Part shown: positions 43,810 to 59,877 of the stretch, in pieces
How the letters are laid out: the number at the start of each line of letters is the position of its first letter
Position numbering within the stretch: position 1 is the first letter of the stretch
IMG/VR virus record: IMGVR_UViG_3300021255_000031
Length of the DNA: 64,000 nt
Source: a virus
Lineage: Duplodnaviria > Heunggongvirae > Uroviricota > Caudoviricetes
Direction: 5' to 3' (one strand)
The notes under the pieces: generated by a model
The model's input: only the letters and a program-made list of their open reading frames with translations
Databases searched by the model: none
What the model was told of the DNA's origin: nothing
Translations under genes and position numbers: made by a program

Positions 43810-43839
43810 AAAAAAAGAATGGCGCTTTCGCGCCATTTT
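43810..43839 (-). terminator. Intrinsic terminator after the TROVE-like gene
   Basis: AATGGCGC-TTTC-GCGCCATT with a long U tract on the minus strand. Confidence 0.75.
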
Positions 43840-43840
43840 A

Positions 43841-45364
43841 TTAGCAAATGTTCTTGTAACGGTCAGAATCTAACTTCTGGAACATCAAGTCTTGTGCCGT
43901 GAGTCCCTTTAAAATCTGTTCGTATAGTACAGGAGAACAACCGCTTACGAAGGTTACGCCAGTCTTAGAGTCTTCCAGGAAAGTATTATTGCGGGCATTG
44001 ACATCCCAATACACAAGGTTGGGAAAATCATACCAGCCGCCGCACCTAGCTTCCCACTTCTGACGAATAGAAGACATAAAGTCCGTCTTTTGATAACCAT
44101 AACGCCCAGTTGCCGCATCAACTTCCATATCGCTTACGATGATAAGAGTCTTAGGCATATCTTCGGGATCAACATTATTTTGTATTGCGGTATTTAGCAC
44201 TAGGTCAAATACGCTTTGTAGATTAGTATTCTCACAAAGATTGGTACTTACGATACGTGCTACCTTATCACAAAAATCCACACCCTTAGTCTCAACTAGA
44301 CGAGCAGTATGGCTGAAGGAGATGTAATGATTTGCGAAAGGCCCCTTAGCACGCTCTGCGGTATAGAGCGCAAGAGATACTGCAACATCAATGGGCTGTA
44401 CAGAGGTGCCGGAGCCCCAACACATACTTCCTGAGGTATCGCAAACAACCATAGCGTTGAGGGTAGCACCTTTGAAGTAATCAGTAAGATTGTCCCAATA
44501 CTTATTTACCATAAGGCGCTCAGTATCATTAAGTGCAGGCTCATTATAACGGTTACCCATACACTTAATTGCGGCCGCCACTACATCATAAGGATATAGA
44601 GTACCAGCATTGACCTTAGTAGTCTTATCCTGTGCAAAAGCCTTGTACTTTTCGGCAATCAGGCCCTTACTCTTAAACACATTACGATAGATAAGACCAG
44701 CGCGAGAAGGAAGCTTAGAGAAGTCAATTTCTTCCCAACGGTTCTGAGACATAAGACGCTCTACTACCTTAATACGCTCACGCAGCATAGAGAGCATCTT
44801 ACGATACTCACGAGGAGTAAGCTCAAGAGCAGCCATAACGCGGCGAGCATTATGACGAGTAGTAGCACTAGATGTATTCTCGGAAGGCATCCACTTCGCG
44901 CAAAGAGATACCGATGCCCGAGGATCATCATTATAAATAGCCATATCGCGGGTTAGCTGATGACGAATGAGTGCCATTACTTCACGCTCAACAGGAGTAT
45001 CGAAGAGTACAAACAGGTCGTCCCAACGGATAAAGTTGCCATCTACCCACTCACGCAGATTCTGGCGGGCGGCTTCAGGATAGTTATTACCAAGCCAACG
45101 CAGACATACACGGAAGAAACGACGCTCACCTTGTCCTTCCATAATATCTCTGAGGTACGTCAGGCACTTCATCGCATATCGAGGGTTCTCCATATAGGCT
45201 TCCTTAAAGAGAAGCACGCAATCACTCTCGCTACGAGTGCGGTAAGCTCCACCAAGAGCAAACAGGTCATAAAGTTTAGACATGGATGACTTCTTGGCAA
45301 TAGCACCATTTTCGGTACACTTAAAATTATTCTGGGACTTCATCGCGTTCATAAAAGTATTCAT
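43841..45364 (-). CDS. DUF2828-like TROVE/vWA protein (Ro60/Rsr-like architecture)
   Basis: TENGA, YLRDIMEGQGER, LCAKWMP; vWA MIDAS DTSGSM, IVSDME, VYWDV; own promoter at 45429-45457. Confidence 0.75.
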   Translation of the reverse strand: MNTFMNAMKSQNNFKCTENGAIAKKSSMSKLYDLFALGGAYRTRSESDCVLLFKEAYMENPRYAMKCLTYLRDIMEGQGERRFFRVCLRWLGNNYPEAARQNLREWVDGNFIRWDDLFVLFDTPVEREVMALIRHQLTRDMAIYNDDPRASVSLCAKWMPSENTSSATTRHNARRVMAALELTPREYRKMLSMLRERIKVVERLMSQNRWEEIDFSKLPSRAGLIYRNVFKSKGLIAEKYKAFAQDKTTKVNAGTLYPYDVVAAAIKCMGNRYNEPALNDTERLMVNKYWDNLTDYFKGATLNAMVVCDTSGSMCWGSGTSVQPIDVAVSLALYTAERAKGPFANHYISFSHTARLVETKGVDFCDKVARIVSTNLCENTNLQSVFDLVLNTAIQNNVDPEDMPKTLIIVSDMEVDAATGRYGYQKTDFMSSIRQKWEARCGGWYDFPNLVYWDVNARNNTFLEDSKTGVTFVSGCSPVLYEQILKGLTAQDLMFQKLDSDRYKNIC

Positions 45365-45446
45365 AATTTTTTCTCTCCTTCTCATCTTAGTCTTTTGTCA
45401 AGACCGCAGGTTTTTTCTTTATGTATTTATTATAACATAATTTTGA

Positions 45447-47153
45447 TTAAAAGTCAAAGTATAAAGCTGGTATATATTCTGCATTTTCAAGATCGGTTAG
45501 AAAGCGTAAAAAATTTATATGAGCTACGCCAATTTTTTGCAATTGTTTTGTATAAATTCCAATAGCATGTTGCTGCGTTGTAGTATCATTATGCTGATAT
45601 ACTTTATATAAATCACGATAAAATTCGCGTAAAAGATTCCAATGCTCTTGTCCTGTTTCTGGCGCATATTTCATAAGATACCAAAAATCATACCACAAGC
45701 GTACCATTACAAAACTAATATCCTCCCATATAAAGAAAGAATTAATTTTATTTTTCTTGGCAATTTTAATTACATGCCGCTCATTTAACAATAATCCTTT
45801 TAATTGTTTTGTATACATATATTCCTTATTATTAATATGAGTAATAGAATTTTTATCATATGTATACATATATATAGGCGTACCATAAAAATGTAATTTA
45901 ATTGTATTATCATATAAATTTAATTGTTTAATTATAAGCATACATGCACGATTAAATCCGACATCTTCGTTAGCATAAGAAGATTCAGGGCAAAAATGAA
46001 TATTATATAATTCCAGAAATTCTCTTTCATAAACTGCTCCATGCAAACAATGTAATGTATTACCAGAATAGCTATTCCATTCCGCATTCAACCAACGCCA
46101 TAAATATAGATAAGGCGTAGTATCTGAAAGAATAGTAAGTATTACTTGCAATATAGCATATTTAGATAAAATATAATCTCCAGTATCTATAAATAAAATA
46201 TGAGAACCATTTGTAGCATTTATACCATCTTGGCGTGCCATTCCCGGCCCTTCATTACGTGATTTCATAATGAAATTAACTTTTGGATATTTTGTATTAA
46301 TTTCTGAATAGTCAATATCAGAACAATCATCGACTACAGTAATAGTAACGGGAAAATTATACATTTTTCCTAATGCAAAAATTTCTTCATCATATACAGA
46401 TTTAATTGTTACTTCTAAATCTTTTATATTTTTATATGTAGGAATAATAATATCTAATCCATATTTATCAGGTATATTACGTTTAATTTTTATATCTTTA
46501 TACTTTTCAACTAATGGCTCATGCTGCCAATTTTTAAGTGCTGCATAATGTATAATTTTGCGATGCTTTGCATCAAGGCTATAATTACTAATATTATAAT
46601 CTGAAGGGAGCTGATAGATATAACCTTGACATAAATTGTTAAAGCAATCTTGTTCTGGAAAAGCGTAATGATACGTATTGAGCGAATGAATTAATTCATC
46701 ATCCTTACAATCCTCACGCAATTTTTTTAAATTAAATAATGCTATACCTATATTTGTATATAAGAATTTTTTAGTAGATTTATGTGATTCACGAGTTGCC
46801 GCGAAATAATAATTAGTTAAGTCTAAATCCCATAAATTTGATATATTTTCATTTACTATAGTATCTACATCAAGCATTAAAATTTTATCAAGTTGCGGGA
46901 AAATTTTTGTTAATGCGGCCTTTAACAATATCATATAAGACCATGAATTATTGTAATTTGGTCCATCTTTATCAAACCATTCTTGATTACTTACATTTAT
47001 ACATTCAATTTCGGGCGGCAAATCATAAGGAAATTCATCATCCTCGATTAAAAAATATATTTTATCTACATCCGAATGTATTAAAAGAGATTTTGCAGAA
47101 GGCAACATATCTTGATATATGTTGCGCGTACCTGCATAACATGCATATTTCAT
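45447..47153 (-). CDS. Fused GT8 + GT2 glycosyltransferase
   Basis: LMLDVD, N.G, EQDCFN, IIHYA; then IIIPTY, VVDDCS, GPGMARQDG, FIDTGD. Confidence 0.85.
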   Translation of the reverse strand: MKYACYAGTRNIYQDMLPSAKSLLIHSDVDKIYFLIEDDEFPYDLPPEIECINVSNQEWFDKDGPNYNNSWSYMILLKAALTKIFPQLDKILMLDVDTIVNENISNLWDLDLTNYYFAATRESHKSTKKFLYTNIGIALFNLKKLREDCKDDELIHSLNTYHYAFPEQDCFNNLCQGYIYQLPSDYNISNYSLDAKHRKIIHYAALKNWQHEPLVEKYKDIKIKRNIPDKYGLDIIIPTYKNIKDLEVTIKSVYDEEIFALGKMYNFPVTITVVDDCSDIDYSEINTKYPKVNFIMKSRNEGPGMARQDGINATNGSHILFIDTGDYILSKYAILQVILTILSDTTPYLYLWRWLNAEWNSYSGNTLHCLHGAVYEREFLELYNIHFCPESSYANEDVGFNRACMLIIKQLNLYDNTIKLHFYGTPIYMYTYDKNSITHINNKEYMYTKQLKGLLLNERHVIKIAKKNKINSFFIWEDISFVMVRLWYDFWYLMKYAPETGQEHWNLLREFYRDLYKVYQHNDTTTQQHAIGIYTKQLQKIGVAHINFLRFLTDLENAEYIPALYFDF

Positions 47154-49426: not shown

Positions 49427-49512
49427 TCGGCCTATTACGGGTTTTCAACCCGCTAGAATATGCTTTCTTCAACAGATAGAATTTTCTTGAAATTAATTGC
49501 TGTGTAGGCCGA
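49427..49512 (-). ncRNA. CAGCAA-scaffold RNA, copy 1
   Basis: TCGGCCTA/TAGGCCGA helix, CAGCAA, internal GCGGG-TTGAAAA-CCCGT stem-loop. Confidence 0.65.
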
Positions 49513-49519
49513 TAATAAA

Positions 49520-49648
49520 ATTGTGGGTAAGGATTTGCACCTTACATGATTTCCTTCTGAGTAAAATCTATGACCTCATAGCCAAGCCAAGTCTTCCTTG
49601 ATGCACGGGTTCAAACCGTCTAGCGTCTACCTATTCCGCCACCACAAT
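49520..49648 (-). ncRNA. tRNA-like RNA: Leu/Ser-type D arm, UGA loop, variable region of about 60 nt
   Basis: TTGTGG/CCACAA acceptor, GGCGGAATAGGTAGACGC, ACGG-TTTGAAC-CCGT, TAAGG-TGCAAAT-CCTTA. Confidence 0.65.
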
Positions 49649-49651
49649 TAT

Positions 49652-50101
49652 TTACTTATAAAGTTGATAATGCTTTGAAATTGTATGAGCGATTTCGTCA
49701 GGTAATGGACGAAAACCAATACAAGTTAATGTGCGCCCAACACCATTTTCATCAGTTTCTTCGGGAGTAAGCTCCGTGAGACAAGCATCTTTAATGAGGA
49801 AAAAATCTACTCCCTCTTCTAACCCCAATTCGCGTGCGTAGTCAACTGCCTTCATCAGTTGATTATAATTTTTAGCTTCGCAAATAGTTTTTGTAAAAAT
49901 ACCACAAAACCACTTTTTTACTACATCTGCGGGTAATTCCAATTCAAAATAATAAGTATCATTAAACTTTTGATATGGAGCAAACGCCGCTTCTTTTCTA
50001 AGTATATTAGATAAAAATGCCCAACTTGCATGTGCTACTTGTGCCGCCAATTTACCAGGGCTCATCTGTAAATCTTTTCGCGCGATTATTAATTGTCTCA
50101 T
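49652..50101 (-). CDS. Peptidyl-tRNA hydrolase, PTH2 family
   Basis: RKDLQMSPGKLAAQVAHAS, DACLTEL, TCIG..P. Confidence 0.92.
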   Translation of the reverse strand: MRQLIIARKDLQMSPGKLAAQVAHASWAFLSNILRKEAAFAPYQKFNDTYYFELELPADVVKKWFCGIFTKTICEAKNYNQLMKAVDYARELGLEEGVDFFLIKDACLTELTPEETDENGVGRTLTCIGFRPLPDEIAHTISKHYQLYK

Positions 50102-50456
50102 TCTTGCTCCGTCGTCATAAGTGTTCTTTGATATTCAATTGCTTCATCAATCTTAGAATGATCGAATATTGTACCATCAGAACAACGCCAAGCTACTGGT
50201 TGTAAGTTTCGCTTAATAGCATTTTTAGTAGTGTTAGACTCAAATTGTCCGGTAGTCTTATTTGCATGACATTCTGGAACCAATTCTTTTAAAGGGATTC
50301 TACACCAACCCTGACCGCATTGCCCGGCCTGCGCTGTATCATAACAAATAGCAATGGTATGCTTATCTGTTATATAATCATAAACTTCATAGCGCTTACC
50401 GTTCTTACGATGATACATTACTTCCATTATTTTGCATCCTTTCTTGTAATAAAGAC

Positions 50457-50555
50457 TAGACCAGTTTTATTTTTGAAGGATTTGAACCTTCTATATTTTT
50501 TTTATTAAGAAAAAAATAATTATCCATTGTTAAAATAAATGGCTGTACTGGTCTA
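50457..50555 (-). ncRNA. CAGC(C)A-scaffold RNA, copy 2
   Basis: TAGACCAG/CTGGTCTA helix, CAGCCA, T-arm GAAGG-TTCAAAT-CCTTC. Confidence 0.6.
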
Positions 50556-50565
50556 TAAAAATTTC

Positions 50566-50627
50566 TAGGCTTTCTTTGTTCCTTTGATTTCAAGTCAAAT
50601 TTTTGTAATAGTTGCTGACAAAGCCTA
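50566..50627 (-). ncRNA. CAGCAA-scaffold RNA, copy 3 (Ser-UGA anticodon stem-loop)
   Basis: TAGGCTTT/AAAGCCTA helix, CAGCAA, TTTGA-CTTGAAA-TCAAA. Confidence 0.7.
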
Positions 50628-50632
50628 ATAAA

Positions 50633-50705
50633 CTGGGATGGCTGGATTTGAACCAGCGAATGCGGGAGTCAAAGTCCCGTGCCTTAACCGCTTGGCTACA
50701 TCCCA
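50633..50705 (-). tRNA. tRNA-Gln(UUG)
   Basis: Canonical cloverleaf, CT TTG AC loop. Confidence 0.93.
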
Positions 50706-50718
50706 TCAAAGTATCGCA

Positions 50719-50988
50719 TTAAATACGATACTGGTCGATACCGCTTGGAATCACTCCATCATTAGTTTCATTAACTAAATAAGTTTCCTTATTATGCTCT
50801 GAAACAAAATAAAGCACGCCAAGTAATGAACGGGCACTAACACGAACCTTACCATCTGCTGTTTCAAGCACATAGTGGTCAGTCGTGCCATCACGATTAA
50901 GACTCGCTACAAAATTCGCAGCATCGGTCTGTGTAATTAAACGAATATGAGTACGATGATACATTTTAATCTTCTCCCTGAGTTTCAA
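50719..50988 (-). CDS. HPr-like protein
   Basis: AANFVASL...RVSARSLLGVL (Ser46-like region); no obvious His15 motif. Confidence 0.7.
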   Translation of the reverse strand: MKLREKIKMYHRTHIRLITQTDAANFVASLNRDGTTDHYVLETADGKVRVSARSLLGVLYFVSEHNKETYLVNETNDGVIPSGIDQYRI

Positions 50989-51707
50989 ACTCTTCTGTAA
51001 TTTCTTCTTCGGTTAGAATGTCATTAAGTTCGGTAAGAGCCATAGTCATTAGGAAAGATTTTCCATAAAAGCTCACAAGCCTATCCGCGGCTTTGCCATA
51101 GGTTTCCGCCGCCACAATGCCCTTTTCGGTCGTGGTTGCTCTAATTTCATTGTCGAAAAAAGTAACTACATAACTAAACATAACTTATTCTACCTTTCTT
51201 TTTTTAAAAAAACGGTGGCGCCGTATAACGACTTACCGTAATTTCGTATCACCTACTGATGATAAAGCGCCAGTTACTGAGGGTCATCAAGCATCTTTGC
51301 CTGCTTAACCCTACTCCAAGAAGAAGAAAAAACCAACTTACGCATACCGTTATCAATCCTTTCTTTCGTTCTTTATGTATATATTATAGCACAAATTTGA
51401 ATAAAAGTCAAGTATTTAATGTCAAGCCATTAAGATTAACGTCATAAGGCTGACCGGTACAAGTTATTGTTGGACTTACGGGTGGTTTGGTCGCAGTCGT
51501 AGTATTAACATTAAATGTCGGCACACAAAAAGTACAAATTGTTTGATTTGGCGCCATTACAGCACCGCATTTAGGACAAATCCAACCATACTGGAAGGAA
51601 TAAGTAGTTGTTACGGATTGTGAAGTTAGTGTTGGGGTTGTAGACTCAGGATTAAGCTTTTTGTTAACTAATCTTTTAAGTTCATTCATAATATTATCTC
51701 TCCTTTA

Positions 51708-51779
51708 AGCGCCTGGTTGGAGTCGGACCAACTAATAAGGGTTTTGCAGGCCCTTCCCCGACCGCCAGGGTTCAGACGC
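51708..51779 (-). tRNA. tRNA-Cys(GCA)
   Basis: Cloverleaf, CT GCA AA loop, U73. Confidence 0.85.
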
Positions 51780-51794
51780 ATTTTCTCATAAATG

Positions 51795-51867
51795 ACAGGA
51801 GCTGAGCGATTTGAACGCCCATCGTCTGTTTTGGAGACAGAAAGACTAACCATTGTCCTAAGCTCCT
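51795..51867 (-). tRNA. tRNA-Trp(CCA)
   Basis: Cloverleaf, CT CCA AA loop, G73. Confidence 0.88.
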
Positions 51868-51871
51868 ATAA

Positions 51872-52019
51872 TGTGCCCGGCGAGGCTCGAACTCGCGACC
51901 CCTTGATTATGGTGGAGTATCAAGGTATTGCACCTTGTCCTCTATTAGACGTCTCTAATAGTATGCTCTTTACATTACTACCCCAAAGTCAAGTGCTCTA
52001 CCAACTGAGCTACGGGCAC
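51872..52019 (-). tRNA. tRNA-Lys(UUU) interrupted between nt 35 and 36 by a 75-nt tRNA-like insert (51910-51984)
   Basis: Removing the insert gives a 73-nt cloverleaf with CTTGA-CT TTT AA-TCAAG. Confidence 0.9.
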
Positions 52020-52120
52020 AAATACGGGGAATTCTCCCCGCTATCTCTTCTCCCTAATGCTTCGTAAGTTTATTAAGATATGGTTAGGAGATATAGCCAT
52101 GTAGGTGCGACCTACATATA

Positions 52121-52198
52121 TCGGGATGGGTAGATTTGAACTACCGAAAACCTCCTGTTTATCAGACAGGCACTCTAAACCAACTGAGCTACATCCCG
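52121..52198 (-). tRNA. tRNA-Ile(GAU)
   Basis: Cloverleaf, CT GAT AA loop. Confidence 0.9.
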
Positions 52199-52201
52199 TT
52201 A

Positions 52202-52288
52202 TGGTGCGCCAGGATGGAATTGCACCACCGATGTTTCTAATGTGGGTGATTTACAGTCACCTGACCTCGCTACTAGTCACACTGACGC
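52202..52288 (-). tRNA. tRNA-Tyr(GUA), CCA encoded
   Basis: GGTGA-CT GTA AA-TCACC, long variable arm, ends ACCA. Confidence 0.85.
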
Positions 52289-52298
52289 ATAATGTCAC

Positions 52299-52715
52299 TC
52301 AAAGAGTGACAAGATATTTTGAAGTATCAATCTTCACATTACTAGCAAATTTAGATGGTGGTTCAATACGTAGAGCAATTTGCTTTACATTACCTGCTGC
52401 CCTTAAATCTGCCATAGGAATTACAAACATATGTTGGTCTTTATCTAAACAAAATAGATAATCTAATGGATGATTTAATATAGTATCATATACACTACCA
52501 TTAGTACCACCACAACTTTTAAGTACAATACTATTACTTTCACTTCCGGTAGCCTTACATTGAACAGTTTGAAATACTCCATCCTTTTCAACAATAAAGT
52601 CATACCATTGAGTATCATTTAGCGGAACATTTACAGTATATCCATTGGCTCCAAACCAAGCTATACCGAGCGCCATGCCTGCGCGTCCTTTGTCTTTGTT
52701 AGTTTCAAATAACAT
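52299..52715 (-). CDS. Free-standing PD-(D/E)XK endonuclease (homing-endonuclease-like) inside the tRNA array
   Basis: KGRAG...GYTVNVPLND...YDFIV...VQCKAT; SD AGGAGG before ATG at 52715. Confidence 0.75.
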   Translation of the reverse strand: MLFETNKDKGRAGMALGIAWFGANGYTVNVPLNDTQWYDFIVEKDGVFQTVQCKATGSESNSIVLKSCGGTNGSVYDTILNHPLDYLFCLDKDQHMFVIPMADLRAAGNVKQIALRIEPPSKFASNVKIDTSKYLVTL

Positions 52716-52801
52716 ATTATTCTCCTCCTGTGAGATAATTATTGTGGCCGATGACAGGAGCATCTTAATCTCATTAAGGAGCGACCTTAATGCTACCCAG
52801 T

Positions 52802-52913
52802 TGGTGGAATGTGGGAGAATTGAACTCCATCCTTATGGATCGACATTTGCAATGCCTACGTTATCACCTTGCGGTTTACCTCGGTGGCTACCCTGATGCC
52901 ACTTTCACATCCC
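52802..52913 (-). ncRNA. 112-nt tRNA-like RNA with G3-U70/A73/CCA acceptor and extra internal domain
   Basis: GGGATGT/ACATTCC-A-CCA, GGAG-TTCAATT-CTCC, GGCA-TTGCAAA-TGTC. Confidence 0.7.
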
Positions 52914-52917
52914 ATAA

Positions 52918-52990
52918 CATGCACACTAGTGCTCAAACCAGAATCTTCTGATTAAGAGCCAGATGCATTAACCAATTGTGTTAAAAGCCC
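52918..52990 (-). pseudogene. Degenerate tRNA-Lys(CUU)
   Basis: Anticodon arm TCTGG-CTCTTAA-TCAGA is intact, but acceptor strands GGGCTTT/TGTGCAT do not pair. Confidence 0.6.
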
Positions 52991-52996
52991 ATAAAA

Positions 52997-53068
52997 CACC
53001 CCTATAGGGATTTGAACCCCAATCAACGGATTAGAAGTCCGATGCCTTCTCCATTAGGCCATAGGGGC
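52997..53068 (-). tRNA. tRNA-Arg(UCU)
   Basis: Cloverleaf, CT TCT AA loop. Confidence 0.9.
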
Positions 53069-53076
53069 TTGTATAA

Positions 53077-53186
53077 TGGTGCGGCGGGTCAGGATTTGCA
53101 CCTGCGAAGCCCACGGTTCTAGCTAGCATACCGACGTGGGCACCAAACTTACCGGTTGGCCCCTTTGTCTGCTTGGATACCACCGC
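53077..53186 (-). ncRNA. 110-nt tRNA-like RNA (GUA loop, oversized variable arm, CCA encoded)
   Basis: GCGGTGG/CCGCCGC-A-CCA, CCAA...CGGTAAG...TTGG, GCCCACG...CGTGGGC arm. Confidence 0.65.
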
Positions 53187-53225
53187 ATATTAACTTATTC
53201 TTCTACAATAAACCAAAATTTCGCT

Positions 53226-53301
53226 GGTGGGCAGAGAAGGTGTCGAACCTTCATCCTTGAGTTTTTCAGACTCACGCTCAGACCGCCTAAGCTATCTGCC
53301 C
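53226..53301 (-). tRNA. tRNA-Phe(GAA), CCA encoded
   Basis: Cloverleaf, CT GAA AA loop. Confidence 0.9.
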
Positions 53302-53306
53302 ACGAA

Positions 53307-53393
53307 CAGAAGCGGTAGGATTTGAACCCACGGAGCTGTTACACCCTCTTGCTTTCAAGGCAAGCGCCTTAAGCCAGACTCGGCCACGCTTCT
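53307..53393 (-). tRNA. tRNA-Ser(UGA)
   Basis: Class II cloverleaf, CT TGA AA loop, G73. Confidence 0.92.
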
Positions 53394-53400
53394 ATAAAAC

Positions 53401-53462
53401 ACGGCAGTTTTTAGAATTACATTTTAAAAGAATGTTCCTATAATAATTGCTGCTCCTGCCGT
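53401..53462 (-). ncRNA. CAGCAA-scaffold RNA, copy 4 (Lys-UUU anticodon stem-loop)
   Basis: ACGGCAG/CTGCCGT helix, CAGCAA, ACATT-CTTTTAA-AATGT. Confidence 0.7.
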
Positions 53463-53464
53463 AA

Positions 53465-53536
53465 CACCCTCCGAAAGAATCGAACTTTCATTTTACGGTT
53501 CGTAGCCGTATGGTCTTTCCGTTAGCCTAGAAGGGT
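53465..53536 (-). tRNA. tRNA-Arg(ACG)
   Basis: Cloverleaf, CT ACG AA loop. Confidence 0.88.
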
Positions 53537-53615
53537 ACGTGCTCGCTATTTAGAATGCCCGCGAGCTGGGCCACTATTTAATCCATAGCTGGCGCCAACC
53601 AGTTAAATTGGCAGA

Positions 53616-53701
53616 CAGAGGTTAGAGGACTTGAACCTCTGCGGCCTTTCAGCCCTAATTGTTTAGCAAACAATCCCCTTCACCAACTTGGGTAAACCTC
53701 C
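53616..53701 (-). tRNA. tRNA-Ser(GCU)
   Basis: Class II cloverleaf, TT GCT AA loop, G73. Confidence 0.9.
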
Positions 53702-53704
53702 ATA

Positions 53705-53786
53705 TGTCGGTGGCCAGATTCGAACTGGCACGTCCAAAGGACATCAGATTTTAAGTCTGAGGTGGCTGCCGTTACACCACACCGAC
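53705..53786 (-). tRNA. tRNA-Leu(UAA)
   Basis: Class II cloverleaf, CT TAA AA loop, A73. Confidence 0.9.
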
Positions 53787-54825
53787 ATTAAATTCTATCT
53801 TCTATATCTTTACCAAAGGCTTCTTCAACTTGTTCTGGCGAAAAACCAAGTGCCACGGCGAATGACTTACAAAAACTATGAAGTGTACCAATAGTCATAT
53901 CTGGTGTAGTTCTGAAAGTCAAATCAACGTTATCATCAAATTCGTTATCATCGTTATAATAATTAAATTCTACAGTAATAGGTCTATTTATCTCCATGAT
54001 TCAGTCTCCTTATAAGGATTTTCCTTATCCCAAACAGCACAGTCTTTTACGATAAAATCATTCATTTGGAAAAACATATTCCAAGCAACTTCAAGGCAAT
54101 CGGTATGCCAAAGCTTAGTACGACCGGTTTTCTTATCACGAAAGCGAAGAACGCAACGAAGAATACCACCGCTTTTATCCTCAAACCAATCCATCTGAGT
54201 AGAAACCTGTTCTACAACAAAGCGCCCACGCCACAGATTATCGTCATAAATAGACTTGTTAATATCGCGGCAAAACTTATTAAGCCAACGCTGATGAGCG
54301 CGGCGATTATGAGATTTCATACTGTATTCCTTCATTTTCTTTCCCTCACTTTCTATAATAATTATAGCATAAATTTAGAAAGAAGTCAAATAATTAACGA
54401 ATAGAATTAATTTCAATTAACTTGCCACATTTATCACATTGGTAAATATATCGAATATTATATCGATGTACCGCCTGCTGAAAAATATAGTGTCCTCCGC
54501 ATCTTGTACAAATGCCATCATTATATACTATGTTACAGGACGATTCTTGTAAAAATACTACGCCTATAAAAAGTAATATAGCAATTAACACTGCTATAAA
54601 AAAAATTTTCCTATCTTTCATTATATTAGTCTTTACTCTCCTTAAACTTATAGAACGCACGATTAACAATATAAATCTCATGCCCGCATTCTGGACATTC
54701 GATATATTCTATCCAATCCCGCTGATTATCAGAAAATTTTATATCACTATCTTCAAAAGAGAATAAACAATCACAAAATTTACATGTCATACGATATTGC
54801 GCGTGCCCATGCTTAATAATTTTTA

Positions 54826-55260
54826 TCATTTTCTCCATTCCTCAGTTTCGATATTATTTTCTTTAAGCCATTCAATAACGACTTGCCGCTCACTACAAGG
54901 ATTATCCGGAGTCTCAAAAAATAATAGCACAAACTCTACATTCCCTAGGCTCTCCGCAACTTCAATATCATTTTTTAAAACTTGTAATTCATTTAGAATA
55001 TTATGAATATCTATACCGTTCAACTGTTTGCGATATTCCTGAAGAAAAGCACAATCCTGTGGATGCTTTGGATTACATTTTCCATTACATAAACCATTAC
55101 AATTATATCCTGGCTTTAGCGGCGGAATATCTAGCCAAATATGACCTTGCTTATCGCGCCCAAGCGGCAACCATTTAGGATTCCAAACTGCGGTTGAAAG
55201 CGATACAAGATTTTTAGGAAAATTACGCATTTGCGCGAAATAAGAAGTATAAATTTTCAT
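54826..55260 (-). CDS. DUF488-like protein
   Basis: KIYTSYF...P.W...LLFFE....CSER pattern. Confidence 0.5.
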   Translation of the reverse strand: MKIYTSYFAQMRNFPKNLVSLSTAVWNPKWLPLGRDKQGHIWLDIPPLKPGYNCNGLCNGKCNPKHPQDCAFLQEYRKQLNGIDIHNILNELQVLKNDIEVAESLGNVEFVLLFFETPDNPCSERQVVIEWLKENNIETEEWRK

Positions 55261-55589
55261 TATTATCCCTTTTTACTGATAAATTTCATTTCAATTTTGG
55301 TGCCATGAGGAATAATATAATTATTAAAATAATTATCTGGAAGAGAACAAATTATACTTGAGCCCTCTTTTTGGAAACAATCCTTATATTGTCCATTACC
55401 TTTCTCATCGAGTGTACGCATTAACCAATTATAAATGGAATCAATAAATTGACTTTTTGTCGCTGTGCTGCTTAGAGTTTCCTTATCCATATTATTTCCT
55501 CATTTCCTTTTTTCTAAAAAAATTATACCATAATTTTAGAGAAAAGTCAATTATAAAAATAAGATGGAAAAAATCCATCTTTTAAATAC

Positions 55590-55697
55590 TAGGCGTCTTA
55601 TTTATTGTCCTACCAATTGGACGATTCGCAAAAAGGATTGCAAAATGGGACTCGAACCCATAACCTATAAAGGCATAATTGTTGCTGAAAACGCCTA
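55590..55697 (-). ncRNA. CAGCAA-scaffold RNA, copy 5, with circularly permuted tRNA module
   Basis: TAGGCGT/ACGCCTA helix; T arm, then acceptor 3' strand TTTGCAA, linker, acceptor 5' strand TTGCGAA, then D arm. Confidence 0.8.
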
Positions 55698-55700
55698 TAA

Positions 55701-55817
55701 TGCTATCGAGTGGATTTGAACCACCACTGCGTAGATTTTGAAGGTCAATGTAAGTGATGACCTTACCGCGCTCTGGCTATTGACCGTCTACTGCCTCTGC
55801 CGTTGGGCTACGATAGC
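55701..55817 (-). tRNA. tRNA-Leu(CAA) with short variable loop, interrupted between nt 32 and 33 by a 44-nt acceptor/T-arm mini-tRNA (55742-55785)
   Basis: Removing the insert gives a 73-nt cloverleaf with GTAGA-CT CAA AA-TCTAC. Confidence 0.85.
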
Positions 55818-55828
55818 AAATTAAAAAC

Positions 55829-55945
55829 TAGACCCACTTATTACGCGCTCTACCATTAAGCTATTTGGGCTTAAAAGCCCAAAGATGGAATCGAACCATC
55901 ACATACGTGCCCCACATGCAAAAGAAATAATTGCTGACAGGTCTA
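55829..55945 (-). ncRNA. CAGCAA-scaffold RNA, copy 6, with circularly permuted tRNA module
   Basis: TAGACC/GGTCTA helix; GATGG-TTCGATT-CCATC, TTTGGGC-TTTTAA-GCCCAAA, GCTT-AATGGTA-GAGC. Confidence 0.8.
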
Positions 55946-55948
55946 AAA

Positions 55949-56036
55949 TCCTACTCCCACGACTTGAACGTGGACTAACCTTGTGAGGGTCTCCGGCTTA
56001 TAAGGCCGTGGCATGTACCAATTATGCTTGAGTAGG
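55949..56036 (-). tRNA. tRNA with UAU anticodon (Ile, AUA-reading) and long variable arm
   Basis: CCTACTC/GAGTAGG acceptor, CGGC-CT TAT AA-GCCG, variable arm of about 19 nt. Confidence 0.8.
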
Positions 56037-56042
56037 AAAATC

Positions 56043-56161
56043 AAGACGGCGAAATGAATGCTACCGCTACACCAAACATAAGTGCCCATCTATGCTGCGG
56101 GATTCGAACCCGCCCCTTTATTATACTGCATAAATTTTCAAAATAATTGCTGAACCGTCTT
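56043..56161 (-). ncRNA. CAGCAA-scaffold RNA, copy 7, with circularly permuted tRNA module
   Basis: AAGACGG/CCGTCTT helix; GCGGG-TTCGAAT-CCCGC, AGCATAG...TTATGTT, TGGTGTAGCGGTAGCAT. Confidence 0.75.
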
Positions 56162-56169
56162 TAAGGCAA

Positions 56170-56241
56170 CGACCCTACGCAGAATTGAACTGCAACCTCG
56201 TGATAGACAGTCACGTATCATAGCCATTAGACCATAGGGCC
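56170..56241 (-). tRNA. tRNA-Asp(GUC)
   Basis: Cloverleaf, CT GTC TA loop, G73. Confidence 0.9.
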
Positions 56242-56300
56242 ATATTGGGAACTTTCGTTCCCTTTTGATATATTTATTATAGCATAAATTTAGAAAAAAG

Positions 56301-56849
56301 TCAATTACTTGAACTACAACAAGTAGTTGTAATCCAACCATGATTAGTCATATTTAACTTAAATTCTGTTTCATTTGCCGTACAGAAAAACACGCCTTCC
56401 GCTGCTTCAAATATATTCTTTGCAATCTCTTGATACAAAGTAGTTCTATTACCATAGATATCGCCAAGATCATCAATATAATACTGTACTACTTGTTTCT
56501 TAAAGACAACATAAGTTAGTGTATTAGACATAACGCCTTCAATTGTCACTACCTTTTCTAGTGCAGGATTATCAGCAAATGCTCTCTCATAAAGATTCGC
56601 ACGATTTAGCTTTAATGCGGTCTTAGGCACATTCGCGGGAATGACGCTAACCTTTACAACCTGATTACCAAAATGCTTTTCAGTAGGTAGAAGCTGTCCT
56701 AGGGCATCAGCTTTATCTGCATTCTCTACATACACAGTAAGCTCTAATGTATCATTATCAAATATTACACCAATTTCCTTATCTTCCTGAAACATTGCCT
56801 TTACATCAGCATACCAAACCTGCCATGGACTGAGAATTTTTAGAGCCAT
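56301..56849 (-). CDS. Hypothetical protein within the tRNA array
   Basis: 182-aa ORF with SD GAGGT. Confidence 0.6.
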   Translation of the reverse strand: MALKILSPWQVWYADVKAMFQEDKEIGVIFDNDTLELTVYVENADKADALGQLLPTEKHFGNQVVKVSVIPANVPKTALKLNRANLYERAFADNPALEKVVTIEGVMSNTLTYVVFKKQVVQYYIDDLGDIYGNRTTLYQEIAKNIFEAAEGVFFCTANETEFKLNMTNHGWITTTCCSSSN

Positions 56850-56948
56850 AAATTTACCTCATTCTTATAAAATTAATGCTGGGCAGGGCGACACTCCCGC
56901 ATCTCCTAACAATGGGCGATAGCTGCCTGTTCTATCCTCCAACTTGAC

Positions 56949-57089
56949 CGCCCGGTGAGGGGCTCGAACCCCCGACACTGCGGTTAATACAGAGGCGAGA
57001 ATTGAACTCGCAACGTGGGCGTCCCTCACATGATTACCAAATCATCTCTCTGTCACAGCCGCATGCTCTACCGACTGAGCTAACCGGGC
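56949..57089 (-). tRNA. tRNA-Asn(GUU) interrupted in the anticodon (nt 35/36) by a 68-nt tRNA-like insert (56987-57054)
   Basis: Removing the insert gives a 73-nt cloverleaf with TGCGG-CT GTT AA-CCGCA. Confidence 0.88.
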
Positions 57090-57099
57090 AAATTCGGCA

Positions 57100-57345
57100 T
57101 GCTATCTCTGAGCTGACGAGCGCCGCACCCGTATAGTCTTACCTATAAGTAGCTATCCTAAATTAAGACCTGATAGCAAGGTAATTATAACCGCTCATAA
57201 CTGTTTACGTTACTTCGTTGGCGGCCGCAACGATAGGCATCTCACCCAGTCCAAGGCGGTTTTTACTCATGCTGGAGATTGTATTAAAGAAAATGTCAAC
57301 TAGTATAAGCCAGCATCCCGCTGAACTACATTTTCTTTTACAAGG
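57100..57345 (-). ncRNA. Unidentified structured RNA candidate (about 245 nt)
   Basis: No ORF; several perfect helices (ATGCTGG/CCAGCAT, CGTTG/CAACG, GCTATC/GATAGC, TATAG/CTATA). Confidence 0.45.
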
Positions 57346-57372
57346 CTCGTGCTCATTAAACACAAGCAGAAA

Positions 57373-57445
57373 TCAAGGTGGAGAGATTTGCACTCCCGAT
57401 TTCGTCATCCCAAGTGACGCCCGTTAGCTACTACGATACACCTTG
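57373..57445 (-). tRNA. tRNA-Pro(UGG)
   Basis: Cloverleaf, CT TGG GA loop, C1-G72. Confidence 0.88.
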
Positions 57446-57450
57446 TTAAA

Positions 57451-57495
57451 ACTGCTGCCTTTACCTACGAATAGATGTTTGCTACTACCGGCAGT
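57451..57495 (-). ncRNA. TAGCAA-scaffold RNA, copy 8 (minimal, UUCG hairpin)
   Basis: CTGCC/GGCAG helix, TAGCAA, ATCTA-TTCG-TAGGT. Confidence 0.5.
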
Positions 57496-57764
57496 ACGGC
57501 GGAAGTGGTTTTCATTCTCCGTAATCTCCGCAGAAGATTACCCTTTATTCCAATAAAAATACTAGGGTCTTTCTACTCTTGACTTATTTAGAGGCTCCCG
57601 TTGGGTGGCAATATTAAATAAGTTTTTCCTTACCATAGAAAGTTTGGACTTTCTATGACGCCTAGCCGCCGCACGCTTTCCTTTCCGGATTAGCTCAGAG
57701 GTCGCCCCAAGCGTAGTCTTTTCATACTCGCTCGCGCTAGCAATTATAATGGACGTTGCCAATA

Positions 57765-57836
57765 TAGCGTGTTGGAGAGTCGAACTCCAGCCAACTGGGT
57801 GAAAACCAGTTATCTTTACCACTTGACTAACACGCC
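57765..57836 (-). tRNA. tRNA-Glu(UUC)
   Basis: Cloverleaf, TT TTC AC loop. Confidence 0.9.
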
Positions 57837-57843
57837 ACATAAC

Positions 57844-57904
57844 TAGACGGCATAAGAAATTTTAATCAGCCAAAATTTTCTACAAGTATTGCTGCTACCG
57901 TCTA
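57844..57904 (-). ncRNA. CAGCAA-scaffold RNA, copy 9
   Basis: TAGACGG/CCGTCTA helix, CAGCAA, AT-rich hairpin with CTGAT loop. Confidence 0.65.
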
Positions 57905-59801: not shown

Positions 59802-59877
59802 AATATAGTCTCCTTGCGGTTCCCTACCCGCAATTTGTATTTCGTTGATTGGGTTCCTTTCCCCTTTCAACATAATA

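What the first reader, a model, noticed from the sequence alone, without database searches (positions are those of the whole stretch)
49427..57904. Nine-member RNA family (helix-YAGC(A/C)A-cargo-helix) interspersed in the tRNA array: candidate Y-RNA-like partners of the phage TROVE/Ro60-like protein
Seen: copies at 49427, 50457, 50566, 53401, 55590, 55829, 56043, 57451 and 57844. Each has a different but complementary 5-8 bp terminal helix (sequence varies, pairing is kept), then 2-3 nt and CAGCAA (variants CAGCCA, TAGCAA), then variable cargo. The genome also encodes a DUF2828-like TROVE+vWA protein with its own promoter. Established: Ro60/Rsr binds a conserved terminal stem of Y RNAs, whose other end is a variable effector module, tRNA-like in YrlA. 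Inference: this may be a divergent phage Ro60-Y RNA system with CAGCAA as the protein-binding signature and interchangeable tRNA-mimic cargos.
Basis: partly seen in the sequence, partly recalled or inferred. Interest (0 to 1): 0.88.

Follow-up and report, generated by a model that had tools for sequence, protein, structure and literature searches.

The report
Partner RNAs of phage Ro60-like protein
Eight, perhaps nine, small RNAs scattered through this phage's tRNA gene cluster share a closing stem plus an invariant CAGCAA "handle" and carry pieces of tRNA as cargo; the same handle lies near the gene for a Ro60-shaped protein in very different phages, so they are most likely that protein's partner RNAs, a branch of the Ro60/Y-RNA system that I could not find described.

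Summary
On the minus strand, eight of the nine listed elements are real members of one RNA family; the ninth (57451-57497, UAGCAA, 5-bp stem) is unsupported. Each has a 7-10 bp terminal stem starting (U/A)AGRC, CAGCAA 9-10 nt from the stem's first base, variable cargo, and a closing GYCU(U/A).

The cargo consists of tRNA parts:
- E5-E7 carry a permuted T-arm, closed acceptor and D-arm module (YrlA-like).
- E3 and E4 carry anticodon-stem-loop copies.

The DUF2828/DUF7788 protein (43841-45385) folds like Ro60: a TROVE ring plus a vWA domain with an intact MIDAS site.

Handle and gene co-occur in both directions:
- All ten DUF2828 phages scanned whole, from six host groups, have hits on the gene's strand.
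- None of five tRNA-rich phages without DUF2828 has a hit, two with canonical Ro60 among them.
- Of IMG/VR loci chosen by motif plus stem alone, 14 of 16 records carry DUF2828, against 2 of 34 motif-only records.

Binding and function are untested. The family reaches no Rfam threshold and appears in none of the papers I searched. The closest known relatives are Ro60 with YrlA. The handle also matches dictyostelid Class I RNAs. This scan has noted the family before on other DNA (167 notes). Verdict: a new variant of a known kind, of high interest.

The parts
49427..49512 (-). E1: handle UCGGCCUA-CA-CAGCAA ... UAGGCCGA. Cargo has a T-arm-like hairpin (CGGG-UUGAAAA-CCCG). It lies 5 nt upstream of an insert-bearing tRNA (49232-49421).
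   Evidence: R1 23.8 bits, E 0.0018; R2 26.5 bits; homologue in L009 6562-6647.
50457..50555 (-). E2: handle UAGACCAGU-A-CAGCCA ... ACUGGUCUA. Cargo is an AU-rich hairpin plus a perfect T-arm (GAAGG-UUCAAAU-CCUUC).
   Evidence: R1 15.9 bits, E 0.22; R2 21.0 bits, E 0.03; homologue L009 5850-5955 has a changed but still paired stem.
50565..50628 (-). E3: handle UAGGCUUU-GU-CAGCAA ... AAAGCCUA. Cargo is an anticodon-stem-loop mimic, UUUGA-CUUGAAA-UCAAA (anticodon UGA, the same loop as the phage tRNA-Ser at 53306-53394). It lies 4 nt after tRNA-Gln.
   Evidence: R1 39.5 bits (the near-identical G001 copy was in the R1 training set); the L009 homologue 5754-5814 has stem UAGACCC/GGGUCUA, changed on both strands.
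53400..53463 (-). E4: handle ACGGCAG-GAG-CAGCAA ... CUGCCGU. Cargo is an anticodon-stem-loop mimic, ACAUU-CUUUUAA-AAUGU (anticodon UUU, Lys). It sits between tRNA-Arg (0-1 nt away) and tRNA-Ser (5-6 nt away).
   Evidence: R1 37.3 bits (in the R1 training set).
55590..55697 (-). E5: handle UAGGCGU-UUU-CAGCAA. The cargo is a V hairpin, a T-arm, a closed 7-bp acceptor-like hairpin and a D-arm (a permuted tRNA-like module). An intrinsic terminator follows at 55561-55581.
   Evidence: R2 79.4 bits, E 1e-14, with the model trained without window sequences; Rfam YrlA 32.3 bits over the full model; R1 21.7 bits.
55829..55945 (-). E6: handle UAGACC-UGU-CAGCAA ... GGGUCUA. Cargo is a T-arm, acceptor hairpin (UUUGGGC/GCCCAAA) and D-arm.
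   Evidence: R2 55.5 bits, E 1.5e-9; Rfam YrlA 27.4 bits; alignment A6.
56043..56161 (-). E7: handle AAGACGG-UU-CAGCAA ... CCGUCUU. Cargo is a T-arm (GCGGG-UUCGAAU-CCCGC), an acceptor-like hairpin and a D-arm-like hairpin. It lies between tRNA-Asp and tRNA-Ile(UAU).
   Evidence: R2 47.5 bits, E 7e-8.
57451..57497 (-). E8: doubtful member, with a 5-bp stem (CUGCC/GGCAG) and UAGCAA. It lies 5 nt upstream of tRNA-Pro.
   Evidence: Seen. Neither R1 nor R2 finds it. The first C of CAGCAA is invariant in the family.
57844..57904 (-). E9: handle UAGACGGUA-G-CAGCAA ... UGCCGUCUA. Cargo is a single AU-rich hairpin. It lies 6 nt upstream of tRNA-Glu.
   Evidence: R1 38.1 bits (in the R1 training set); homologue L009 2287-2345.
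43841..45385 (-). Gene for the 514-aa DUF2828 + DUF7788 protein, the proposed protein partner. It has the Ro60 fold (TROVE-like helical ring plus vWA domain), and the MIDAS residues D316, S318, S320, T387 and D419 are invariant.
   Evidence: Pfam; PHROG 850; alignment A2; AF2 pLDDT 92; Foldseek top hits all Ro60.
45427..45455 (-). Promoter of the DUF2828 gene itself (TTGACT-17-TATAAT with TG).
   Evidence: Sequence; same consensus as the eight array promoters.
43808..43837 (-). Intrinsic terminator after the DUF2828 gene (GC-rich hairpin plus a U run).
   Evidence: Sequence.
56276..56304 (-). Promoter of the unit tRNA-Asp, E7, tRNA-Ile, E6, insert-bearing tRNA, E5, terminator.
   Evidence: 11 of 12 matches, TG extension; terminator 55561-55581 in the same call.

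Best explanation
The elements are small non-coding RNAs of a Y-RNA-like family. Each consists of a constant 'handle' and a variable cargo that copies part of a tRNA.

The handle is a 7-bp closing stem and a short linker, followed by single-stranded CAGCAA opposite an A-rich 3' strand. The cargo is either the elbow half of a tRNA (T-arm, closed acceptor stem, D-arm, in permuted order as in YrlA) or an anticodon stem-loop.

Proposed steps:
1. The RNAs are transcribed with the tRNAs from the array's sigma-70-type promoters.
2. They are set free when RNase P and the 3' tRNA-processing enzymes cut the neighbouring tRNAs, which lie 0-11 nt away.
3. The phage's Ro60-like ring protein (DUF2828/DUF7788, 43841-45385) binds the handle, in the way Ro60 binds the stem and CGAA-type motif of Y RNAs.
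4. The tRNA-like cargo then presents a tRNA look-alike to other factors, as an adaptor or a decoy. Candidates are exonucleases such as PNPase, tRNA repair or modification enzymes, and host anticodon nucleases.

Basis of each part:
- Shown here: the family, its structure, the Ro60 fold and the genomic coupling.
- Inferred: release by tRNA processing, and binding to the protein.
- Speculative: the downstream role.
For: Family and structure:
- CAGCAA was invariant in 93 distinct elements found with a [CT]AGC[AC]A search, apart from a few CAGCCA.
- All 7 stem pairs show changes on both sides.
- The long class has T, acceptor and D helices, with compensatory changes in 20 of 21 pairs.
- R2, trained only on other phages, finds E5, E6 and E7 at E 1e-14 to 7e-8.

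Protein:
- The AF2 model has pLDDT 92.
- The 13 best PDB hits and the 5 best Swiss-Prot hits are all Ro60, full length, including D. radiodurans Rsr and Thermus phage phiLo Ro60.
- The MIDAS residues are invariant.

Coupling, from protein to RNA:
- 87 of 88 R1 hits in 64 DUF2828 loci are on the gene's strand.
- Whole-record scans of LeBron, wV8, P100, Tsamsa and CP30A place every hit within 2.7 kb of the gene.
- Five held-out phages (Staphylococcus, Enterococcus, Sinorhizobium, Ralstonia, Cronobacter) all have same-strand hits at E <= 3e-4. In three of them a hit abuts the gene (E 0.035 in phiM7); in RSP15 and LPCS28 the hits lie 3-10.5 kb away.
- T4, T5, SPO1, Bxz1 and CcrColossus have neither the gene nor a hit at E < 0.01.
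- In LeBron, CP30A and the Staphylococcus phage no tRNA gene is annotated in the stretches fetched, so there the RNAs appear to follow the protein gene rather than tRNA genes.

Coupling, from RNA to protein:
- IMG/VR loci were picked only by AAGACNNAUACAGCAA. Of the 16 that also have a matching stem, 14 lie in records with DUF2828. The other two records are 12-14% complete fragments.
- Of the 34 without a stem that were tested, 2 have the gene. Fisher p = 1.4e-8.

Context:
- The elements lie 0-11 nt from tRNA genes.
- Promoters and a terminator bracket the unit E7-E6-E5.
- A kinase, a phosphoesterase and an RNA-ligase-like gene lie nearby.

Precedent: Ro60 with YrlA, and phage phiLo Ro60 with two Y-like RNAs and host PNPase (PMC4201824, PMC12135203).
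Against: - There are no binding, expression or phenotype data for any member.
- The protein has no sequence-level match to TROVE or to any solved chain.
- The RNAs lack the GNCGAA/CGAA motif of canonical Y RNAs and stay below the Rfam YrlA threshold (32 and 27 bits against 69).
- In this window the nearest element is 4 kb from the gene and the farthest 12.5 kb. In LPCS28, phiM7 and RSP15 the strong hits (E <= 1.2e-3) lie 3-10.5 kb away.
- Both models were built from elements first collected around DUF2828 genes, which is an ascertainment bias. The negative set is only five genomes, and many positive records are related large phages.
- One handle-like hit (L119, 26 bits) lies in a complete 24.7-kb phage without DUF2828. 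After a database-wide pattern pick it may be chance.
- E8 fails both models.
Confidence: 0.78

Rival explanations
1. The handle is a processing or ligation signal, not a protein-docking site for DUF2828. On this reading the elements are precursors of permuted or split tRNAs (or tRNA halves) that are matured by RNase P, CCA trimming and the phage's kinase, phosphatase and RNA ligase. DUF2828 merely travels with the same tRNA-maintenance gene set.
For: - Many relatives encode NCCA at the end of the acceptor 3' strand, and some also carry a full anticodon arm (anticodons GAU, UAA, AAC, GUA). They are therefore complete circularly permuted tRNAs.
- A kinase, a phosphoesterase and an RNA-ligase-like gene are near the DUF2828 gene here, and RtcB and an RNA ligase are near it in P100.
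- M. smegmatis YrlA is cut by RNase P and receives CCA (PMC4201824).
Against: - E5-E7 have no anticodon arm and no CCA.
- E3, E4 and E9 have no acceptor at all, so most members could never become tRNAs.
- In LeBron, CP30A and the Staphylococcus phage the RNAs abut the DUF2828 gene, and the 4.5-17 kb stretches fetched show no annotated ligase, kinase or tRNA gene.
- DUF2828 is the only neighbour common to all ten phages.
Confidence: 0.1
2. The elements are by-products: tRNA-array spacers or decayed tRNA gene fragments whose terminal pairing merely helps precursor folding. They have no function of their own.
For: - They sit within 0-11 nt of tRNA genes.
- They contain T-arm, D-arm or anticodon-loop copies that could be duplication debris.
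- E7 also contains a fragment resembling the phage promoter's -10 region.
Against: - CAGCAA sits at a fixed 9-10 nt register, and the stem covaries, across phages of distant host phyla.
- Almost all hits are on the gene's strand (87 of 88).
- The RNAs are present next to the gene where no tRNA is annotated nearby.
- They are absent from the tRNA arrays of T4, T5, Bxz1 and CcrColossus.
Confidence: 0.04
3. They are ordinary YrlA RNAs of a canonical Ro60 system, so nothing beyond Chen et al. 2014.
For: - Rfam YrlA is the only non-tRNA family that hits E5 and E6, over the full model for E5.
- It also hits the LeBron element, at 39.8 bits.
- The module order is the same (V, T, acceptor, D).
Against: - The scores are far below the gathering threshold.
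- The GNCGAA motif and the second helix of YrlA are absent.
- The protein is Pfam DUF2828/DUF7788, not TROVE.
- Phages with canonical Ro60 and YrlA (Bxz1, CcrColossus) have no handle hits.
- Chen et al. searched only genomes annotated with a TROVE protein (PMC4201824).
- Most members have no tRNA-like elbow at all.
Confidence: 0.05

Closest known systems
Bacterial and phage Ro60 (Rsr) with YrlA/YrlB Y RNAs (Rfam RF02553; Chen et al. 2014, PMC4201824)
   Same: - A ring-shaped TROVE plus vWA protein is encoded near, and on the same strand as, small RNAs.
- The 5' and 3' ends of the RNAs pair, and a short conserved motif follows the 5' strand.
- One RNA class carries a permuted tRNA-like module (V, T, closed acceptor, D).
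- Smaller YrlB-like members coexist with it.
- Linkage with RNA-repair genes recalls the rsr-yrlBA-rtcBA operon.
   Different: - The protein is a different Pfam family with no sequence match to TROVE.
- The motif is CAGCAA at a fixed register instead of GNCGAA/CGAA.
- There is no second helix.
- There are up to 8-9 copies per genome, interleaved with tRNAs, instead of 1-2 beside the gene.
- Cargo also includes bare anticodon-stem-loop mimics.
Thermus phage phiLo Ro60 with Yrl1/Yrl2 (PMC12135203; PDB 9l5y)
   Same: - A phage-encoded Ro60-fold protein; 9l5y is among the top structural hits.
- Several Y-like RNAs lie upstream of the gene.
- Each has a 5'-3' stem flanking a loop that holds the recognition motif.
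- A role in diverting host RNA decay (PNPase) has been shown in vitro.
   Different: - phiLo uses the canonical CGAA motif.
- No tRNA-part cargo was mentioned in the passages I read.
- The phiLo RNAs are not embedded in a tRNA array.
Class I RNAs of dictyostelid social amoebae (Kjellin et al. 2021, PMC7919456)
   Same: - Handle geometry is the same: a 6-bp stem joining the ends, then CUUA, then CAGCAA. The motif starts 10 nt from the first stem base, for example GUUGAC-CUUA-CAGCAA...GUCAAC-UG (supplementary FASTA).
- The stem covaries while the motif is conserved.
- The remainder is variable, the length is 42-65 nt, and there are many gene copies.
   Different: - They are eukaryotic, with their own upstream promoter element (DUSE).
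- No tRNA-like cargo was mentioned in the passages I read.
- The known binding protein is an RRM protein (Rnp1A).
- Whether dictyostelids have a DUF2828 protein was not tested here.
- The resemblance may be convergent.
Circularly permuted tRNA genes
   Same: The 3' half (T-arm, acceptor 3' strand, sometimes CCA) lies upstream of the 5' half (acceptor 5' strand, D-arm), with paired precursor ends.
   Different: - The algal genes yield normal tRNAs through a circular intermediate made by the splicing endonuclease at a bulge-helix-bulge motif.
- Here most members lack an anticodon arm.
- The paired ends carry a conserved CAGCAA loop.
- No such endonuclease is evident.

Membership tests
YrlA (Rfam RF02553) | Score at or above the family's gathering threshold (69 bits) | tested here: not met
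   E5 32.3 bits and E6 27.4 bits; no hit for the other seven. The LeBron element scores 39.8 bits.
YrlA (Rfam RF02553) | Permuted tRNA-like domain: V region, T-arm, closed acceptor-like stem, D-arm, enclosed by paired 5' and 3' ends | tested here: met
   Met for E5, E6 and E7 only: RNAalifold consensus with covariation and R2 hits. E1 and E2 have a T-arm-like hairpin only. E3, E4 and E9 have none.
YrlA (Rfam RF02553) | GNCGAA(N0-1)G motif near the 5' end (Chen et al. 2014) | tested here: not met
   The conserved motif is CAGCAA. No GNCGAA is present in any of the nine.
YrlA (Rfam RF02553) | Encoded within about 4 kb of, and on the same strand as, a TROVE-domain Ro60 gene | tested here: inconclusive
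   Same strand, yes. The distance is 4.0-12.5 kb here but 0-2.7 kb in LeBron, P100, wV8, Tsamsa and CP30A. The gene is DUF2828, not Pfam TROVE.
Ro60 / TROVE proteins | Helical-repeat ring followed by a vWA domain with a MIDAS site (fold) | tested here: met
   Foldseek: Ro60 from Xenopus, human, D. radiodurans and phage phiLo are the top hits over about 480-500 residues, E down to 4e-10, TM 0.5-0.6. DxSxS, T and D are invariant.
Ro60 / TROVE proteins | Sequence match to Pfam TROVE (PF05731) or to solved Ro60 chains | tested here: not met
   Pfam gives only DUF2828 and DUF7788. phmmer and a 71-sequence profile find no PDB chain.
Ro60 / TROVE proteins | Binds Y RNA on the outer ring surface and RNA 3' ends in the central hole | not testable with these tools
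   No RNA-protein prediction or experiment is available here.
CAGCAA-handle RNAs linked to DUF2828 (family defined here by models R1 and R2) | Terminal stem of 7 bp or more, CAGCAA starting 9-11 nt from the first stem base, and a significant CM score | tested here: met
   Met by E1-E7 and E9, though E2 only weakly (E 0.22 with R1, 0.03 with R2). Not met by E8.
CAGCAA-handle RNAs linked to DUF2828 (family defined here by models R1 and R2) | A DUF2828 gene in the same genome, on the same strand | tested here: met
   Gene at 43841-45385 (-). Family-wide association.
Dictyostelid Class I RNAs | A 6-bp terminal stem plus an 11-nt motif (CCUUACAGCAA) adjacent to the 5' strand, 42-65 nt long | tested here: inconclusive
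   Stem, register and CAGCAA match by eye against the paper's FASTA. The first five motif positions differ. No model comparison could be run, and membership is not claimed.

The most novel reading that the evidence does not exclude
The stem-plus-CAGCAA handle is the docking site of an ancient ribonucleoprotein built on the DUF2828 branch of the Ro60 superfamily. It is shared by hundreds of phages and, through the orphan Class I RNAs, by social amoebae. In phages the handle displays interchangeable tRNA parts on the ring protein: anticodon stem-loops of Lys, Ser, Tyr, Asn or Ile type, the tRNA elbow, or a whole permuted tRNA. These would act as decoys or sensors for host anticodon nucleases, or as adaptors that steer tRNA repair and decay enzymes. 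The particle would thereby protect the phage's translation supply.
Probability: 0.25. Interest if true: 0.92.

Novelty: new variant of a known kind. Interest (0 to 1): 0.78.

Why it matters
- DUF2828 ('RNA-binding protein', PHROG 850) is present in 703 deposited phage genomes. These include long-studied or applied phages such as Felix O1-like phages, Listeria P100, KVP40-like vibriophages and cluster L mycobacteriophages. No partner RNA or function is on record for it.
- A defined RNA handle gives an immediately testable ligand for the protein.
- The RNAs explain many 'empty' gaps, and some tiny annotated ORFs, in phage tRNA regions.
- The Ro60/Y-RNA principle would extend to a second protein family with a different recognition motif.
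- The cargos suggest that phages deploy modular tRNA-part mimics. This bears on the current question of how phages counter tRNA-cleaving defences.
- The match to dictyostelid Class I RNAs offers a concrete hypothesis for a 20-year-old orphan RNA class.

Tried and rejected
- **Megablast of the array against deposited phages:** no match.
- **Sequence searches of the protein and its profile against PDB chains:** nothing. Only the fold comparison shows the Ro60 relation.
- **First reverse scan of IMG/VR:** I used the pattern AAGACNNNATACAGCAA, which has one N too many (my error). It returned almost only chance matches, 72 of 80 without a stem, and no informative DUF2828 link. I repeated it with the correct spacing.
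- **Loose helix-plus-motif scans:** these have a high chance background, about 0.04 per kb per strand. Conclusions therefore rest on the covariance models and on strand and location statistics.
- **R1 does not find E6 and finds E7 only in part.** A second model for the long class was needed.
- **Retron-like reading (UAGC branch site after an inverted repeat):** no reverse transcriptase turned up among the 20 ORFs scanned (most of the largest), and the link to DUF2828 explains the data better.
- **Literature searches:** DUF2828, Ro-like with phage and tRNA, and the motif strings gave no description of these RNAs.
- **Dictyostelium DUF2828 homologue:** the Swiss-Prot fold search and the Atlas look-up did not settle whether one exists.
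- **Complex prediction:** not used, because it scores only protein partners.

Full report
**1. What is there**

The window is part of a large phage genome. Its nearest held relative is a 167-kb record with terminal repeats, 91-98% identical across the array. Between 49.2 and 59.5 kb the minus strand carries:
- 16 ARAGORN tRNAs, plus several tRNAs with long inserts that only Rfam finds;
- eight near-consensus promoters, TTGACT-17-TATAAT, all on the minus strand.

Read on that strand, each of the nine sites shows a terminal helix, 0-3 unpaired bases, CAGCAA (E2 CAGCCA, E8 UAGCAA), variable cargo, and the complementary 3' strand. The elements lie 0-11 nt from tRNA genes. E4 sits between tRNA-Arg and tRNA-Ser. 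E7, E6 and E5 alternate with three tRNAs in a unit that runs from the promoter at 56276-56304 to the terminator at 55561-55581.

**2. Is it more than chance, and how many members?**

A loose motif-plus-helix scan has a real background, so I built covariance models.

R1 was built from 33 short elements of many phages, including E4, E9 and the G001 copy of E3. With filters off it finds in the window:

| Element | Bits | E-value |
|---|---|---|
| E3 | 39.5 | 1.4e-7 |
| E9 | 38.1 | 3.2e-7 |
| E4 | 37.3 | 5.2e-7 |
| E1 | 23.8 | 0.0018 |
| E5 | 21.7 | 0.0066 |
| E2 | 15.9 | 0.22 |

Nothing else in 64 kb on either strand scores below E=1.

R2 was built from 18 long elements of other phages only. It finds E5 (79.4 bits), E6 (55.5) and E7 (47.5) over the full model, and E1, E9 and E2 more weakly.

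E8 is found by neither model. Its stem has 5 bp, and its U replaces a C that is invariant in the family. I count eight members (E2 the weakest) and one doubtful.

A relative with a 73% identical protein (L009) keeps E1, E2, E3 and E9. Their stems have changed on both strands, for example E3 UAGGCUUU/AAAGCCUA against UAGACCC/GGGUCUA.

**3. Anatomy of the family**

I collected 93 distinct elements around DUF2828 genes in IMG/VR contigs, using a [CT]AGC[AC]A search. They give this consensus:
- The sequence is (A/U)AGRC-NN-www-CAGCAA ... A-rich ... NN-GYCU(U/A), usually followed by G.
- CAGCAA is invariant apart from a few CAGCCA. It begins 9-10 nt from the first stem base.
- The two inner stem pairs take all four Watson-Crick types in similar numbers.
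- All seven pairs show double changes. Pairing itself was a selection criterion, so only the covariation counts as evidence.

Cargo falls into three classes.
- **Short RNAs (53-75 nt)** mostly carry one hairpin with a 7-nt loop of anticodon type (YU-NNN-RN). 47 of 93 elements have one, against 12 +/- 3 in shuffles. E4 has ACAUU-CUUUUAA-AAUGU (Lys, UUU). E3 has UUUGA-CUUGAAA-UCAAA, the same loop as the phage's own tRNA-Ser(UGA).
- **Long RNAs (105-135 nt)** carry a variable hairpin, a T-arm (GGUUCGAnUCC), a closed acceptor-like stem and a D-arm. 20 of the 21 consensus pairs have compensatory changes. E5-E7 belong here.
- **In relatives**, many acceptor loops begin with NCCA, and some elements add a complete anticodon arm. 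Those are whole circularly permuted tRNAs.

**4. The protein**

- The ORF 43841-45385 (-) is Pfam DUF2828 + DUF7788 and PHROG 850.
- It has its own promoter and terminator.
- It has more than 5,800 representatives at 50% clustering and tblastn matches in 703 deposited phage genomes.
- Sequence searches do not connect it to any solved structure.
- An AlphaFold model from a 71-sequence alignment has pLDDT 92 and pTM 0.91.
- That model matches Ro60 and nothing else over its whole length. The 13 best PDB hits are Xenopus, human and Deinococcus Ro60, a 'Trove domain' entry and Thermus phage phiLo Ro60. In Swiss-Prot models the five best are Ro60, then telomerase p80 and TEP1.
- The vWA MIDAS residues are invariant.

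**5. Coupling of handle and gene**

From protein to RNA:
- In 64 loci around DUF2828 genes (1.08 Mb), 87 of 88 R1 hits at E <= 0.1 are on the gene's strand.
- 35 of 37 loci of 18 kb or more have at least one strict element on that strand.
- Pattern scans, then whole-record scans, of five distant phages place every hit 20 nt to 2.7 kb from the gene, on its strand. The five are Mycobacterium LeBron, Escherichia wV8 (Felix O1-like), Listeria P100, Bacillus Tsamsa and Campylobacter CP30A. These sequences were in the training set, so the new information is the absence of hits elsewhere in those genomes.
- Five held-out DUF2828 phages all give same-strand hits at E <= 3e-4:

| Phage | Where the hits lie |
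|---|---|
| Staphylococcus S-CoN_Ph11 | Three hits abutting the gene, partly overlapping tiny annotated 'hypothetical protein' ORFs |
| Enterococcus VRE9_2 | One hit abutting the gene, another 3.8 kb upstream |
| Sinorhizobium phiM7 | Weak hit (E 0.035) abutting the gene, strong hit 8.2 kb upstream |
| Ralstonia RSP15 | 3.2-3.8 kb upstream |
| Cronobacter LPCS28 | About 10.5 kb upstream |

- Five tRNA-bearing phages without the gene have no hit at E < 0.01. They are T4, T5, SPO1, and Bxz1 and CcrColossus, which have canonical Ro60 and YrlA.
- The tally is 10 of 10 against 0 of 5 (p = 3e-4). For held-out phages only it is 5 of 5 against 0 of 5 (p = 0.008).
- In LeBron, CP30A and the Staphylococcus phage no tRNA gene is annotated in the stretches fetched. 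There the RNAs appear to follow the protein gene rather than tRNA genes.

From RNA to protein:
- I scanned IMG/VR for the bare 16-mer AAGACNNATACAGCAA and looked at the 80 loci returned.
- 16 of them have a matching 3' strand of 7 or more pairs.
- 14 of those 16 records encode DUF2828. The two that do not are 12-14% complete fragments.
- Only 2 of the 34 tested records without a stem encode it. Fisher p = 1.4e-8.
- An earlier attempt with one N too many returned chance matches only.

**6. Comparison with what is known**

- Ro60 orthologues with YrlA/YrlB RNAs are known in more than 250 bacteria and 22 phages. Those searches were restricted to genomes annotated with a TROVE protein, the phage example shown is cluster C phage ET08, and the conserved motif is GNCGAA (PMC4201824).
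- Thermus phage phiLo Ro60 binds two upstream Y-like RNAs with a CGAA loop and forms complexes with host PNPase (PMC12135203).
- The RNAs here share the architecture: paired ends, a motif after the 5' strand, and a permuted tRNA module in one class. Rfam YrlA is the only non-tRNA family that touches them.
- They differ in that they fail the YrlA threshold, lack GNCGAA, pair with a different protein family, are absent from phages with canonical Ro60, come in up to eight or nine copies among tRNAs, and include anticodon-arm cargos.
- I found no Rfam family for them and no paper on them.
- Notes from this scan pointed me to dictyostelid Class I RNAs. The paper's own FASTA files show GUUGAC-CUUA-CAGCAA...GUCAAC-UG: a 6-bp covarying stem and CAGCAA starting 10 nt from the first stem base. 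That is the same handle geometry.
- Whether this resemblance is homology, and whether amoebae have a DUF2828 partner, I could not test. The family does occur in eukaryotes.

**7. Most likely mechanism**

- **Shown:** the RNA family, its covarying handle, the tRNA-part cargos, the Ro60 fold of the protein, and the two-way genomic coupling.
- **Inferred:** the RNAs are released from tRNA-array transcripts by the tRNA-processing enzymes, and the ring protein binds the handle to form a Y-RNA-type particle.
- **Speculative:** the cargo recruits or distracts tRNA-recognising factors.
  - The nearby kinase, phosphoesterase and RNA-ligase-like genes, and RtcB next to the gene in P100, point to tRNA repair or quality control.
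  - Anticodon loops of Lys(UUU), Tyr(GUA), Asn(GUU) and Ile(GAU) recur among cargos. Some of these are tRNA species that known anticodon nucleases cut (my own knowledge). That makes a decoy or sensor role against such defences attractive but untested.

**8. Verdict**

This is a new variant of the Ro60/Y-RNA kind. The scan has met the same family before on other DNA. My scores rest on the tests run here.

Noticed in passing
window 49232-49421, 51872-52019, 55701-55817, 56995-57082 (all -); also about 49520-49645 (-): Several tRNA genes carry long insertions of about 50-120 nt in or near the anticodon loop. Only Rfam calls them, at 190, 148, 117 and 88 nt. The one at 51872-52019 reads as tRNA-Lys(UUU) with a roughly 77-nt insert inside the anticodon loop. 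The stretch at 49520-49645 looks like a class II tRNA with an insert and is called by no tool. The inserts seem too short for typical group I introns (my own judgement).
   Followed up: no
window 56875-56946 (-): A skipping-rope RNA (RF02924) scores above the gathering threshold, 47.7 bits against 36.7, inside the tRNA array.
   Followed up: no
window 57224-57368 (-) and 59815-59873 (-): Near-threshold matches to cow-rumen-3 (79.6 of 86.7 bits) and cow-rumen-4 (40.7 of 48.5 bits) RNAs. They suggest a rumen or gut phage and further orphan RNAs in the array.
   Followed up: no
window 45390-45404 (-): The leader of the DUF2828 mRNA holds a hairpin, GUCUU-GACAA-AAGAC. Its two arms are the conserved halves of the handle stem in reverse order. 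It could be a site for autoregulation by the protein, or it could be chance.
   Followed up: no
window about 57905-58530, 57498-57760, 59060-59360, 52770-52990, 53070-53240 (-): Long non-coding stretches between tRNAs contain T-arm-like hairpins (for example GGGUUCGAGUCCC near 58430) and match no Rfam family. They are probably further structured RNAs.
   Followed up: no
window 47166-48253 (-), 35798-37198 (-), about 49650-50100 (-): An RNA-repair-type gene set lies near the Ro60-like gene: an AAA_33/KTI12-type kinase, a metallophosphoesterase, an RNA-ligase-like protein (weak Pfam hits), and an ORF whose L009 homologue is annotated PTH2 peptidyl-tRNA hydrolase.
   Followed up: partly
L050 3700-3820, L043 2328-2450, L028 313-438, L017 1681-1807, L047 9809-9943: In related phages some handle RNAs are complete circularly permuted tRNAs. 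They run T-arm, acceptor 3' strand, often NCCA, a short linker, acceptor 5' strand, D-arm and a canonical anticodon arm (GAU, UAA, AAC, GUA), all enclosed by the CAGCAA handle.
   Followed up: partly
L119 9368-9436 (+), IMG/VR record of 24.7 kb with terminal repeats: A handle-like element (R1 26 bits, AAGACAC-GAUA-CAGCAA...GUGUCUU) lies in an intergenic gap of a complete small phage. That phage has no DUF2828 match, and the 14.8-kb locus fetched has no tRNA gene. It is either an orphan or a chance match after a database-wide pattern pick.
   Followed up: partly
L194 3019-3366 (Staphylococcus phage S-CoN_Ph11) and L191 1383-1499 (Enterococcus phage VRE9_2): Tiny annotated 'hypothetical protein' ORFs next to the DUF2828 gene overlap strong handle-RNA hits. 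They are probably mis-annotated RNA genes.
   Followed up: partly
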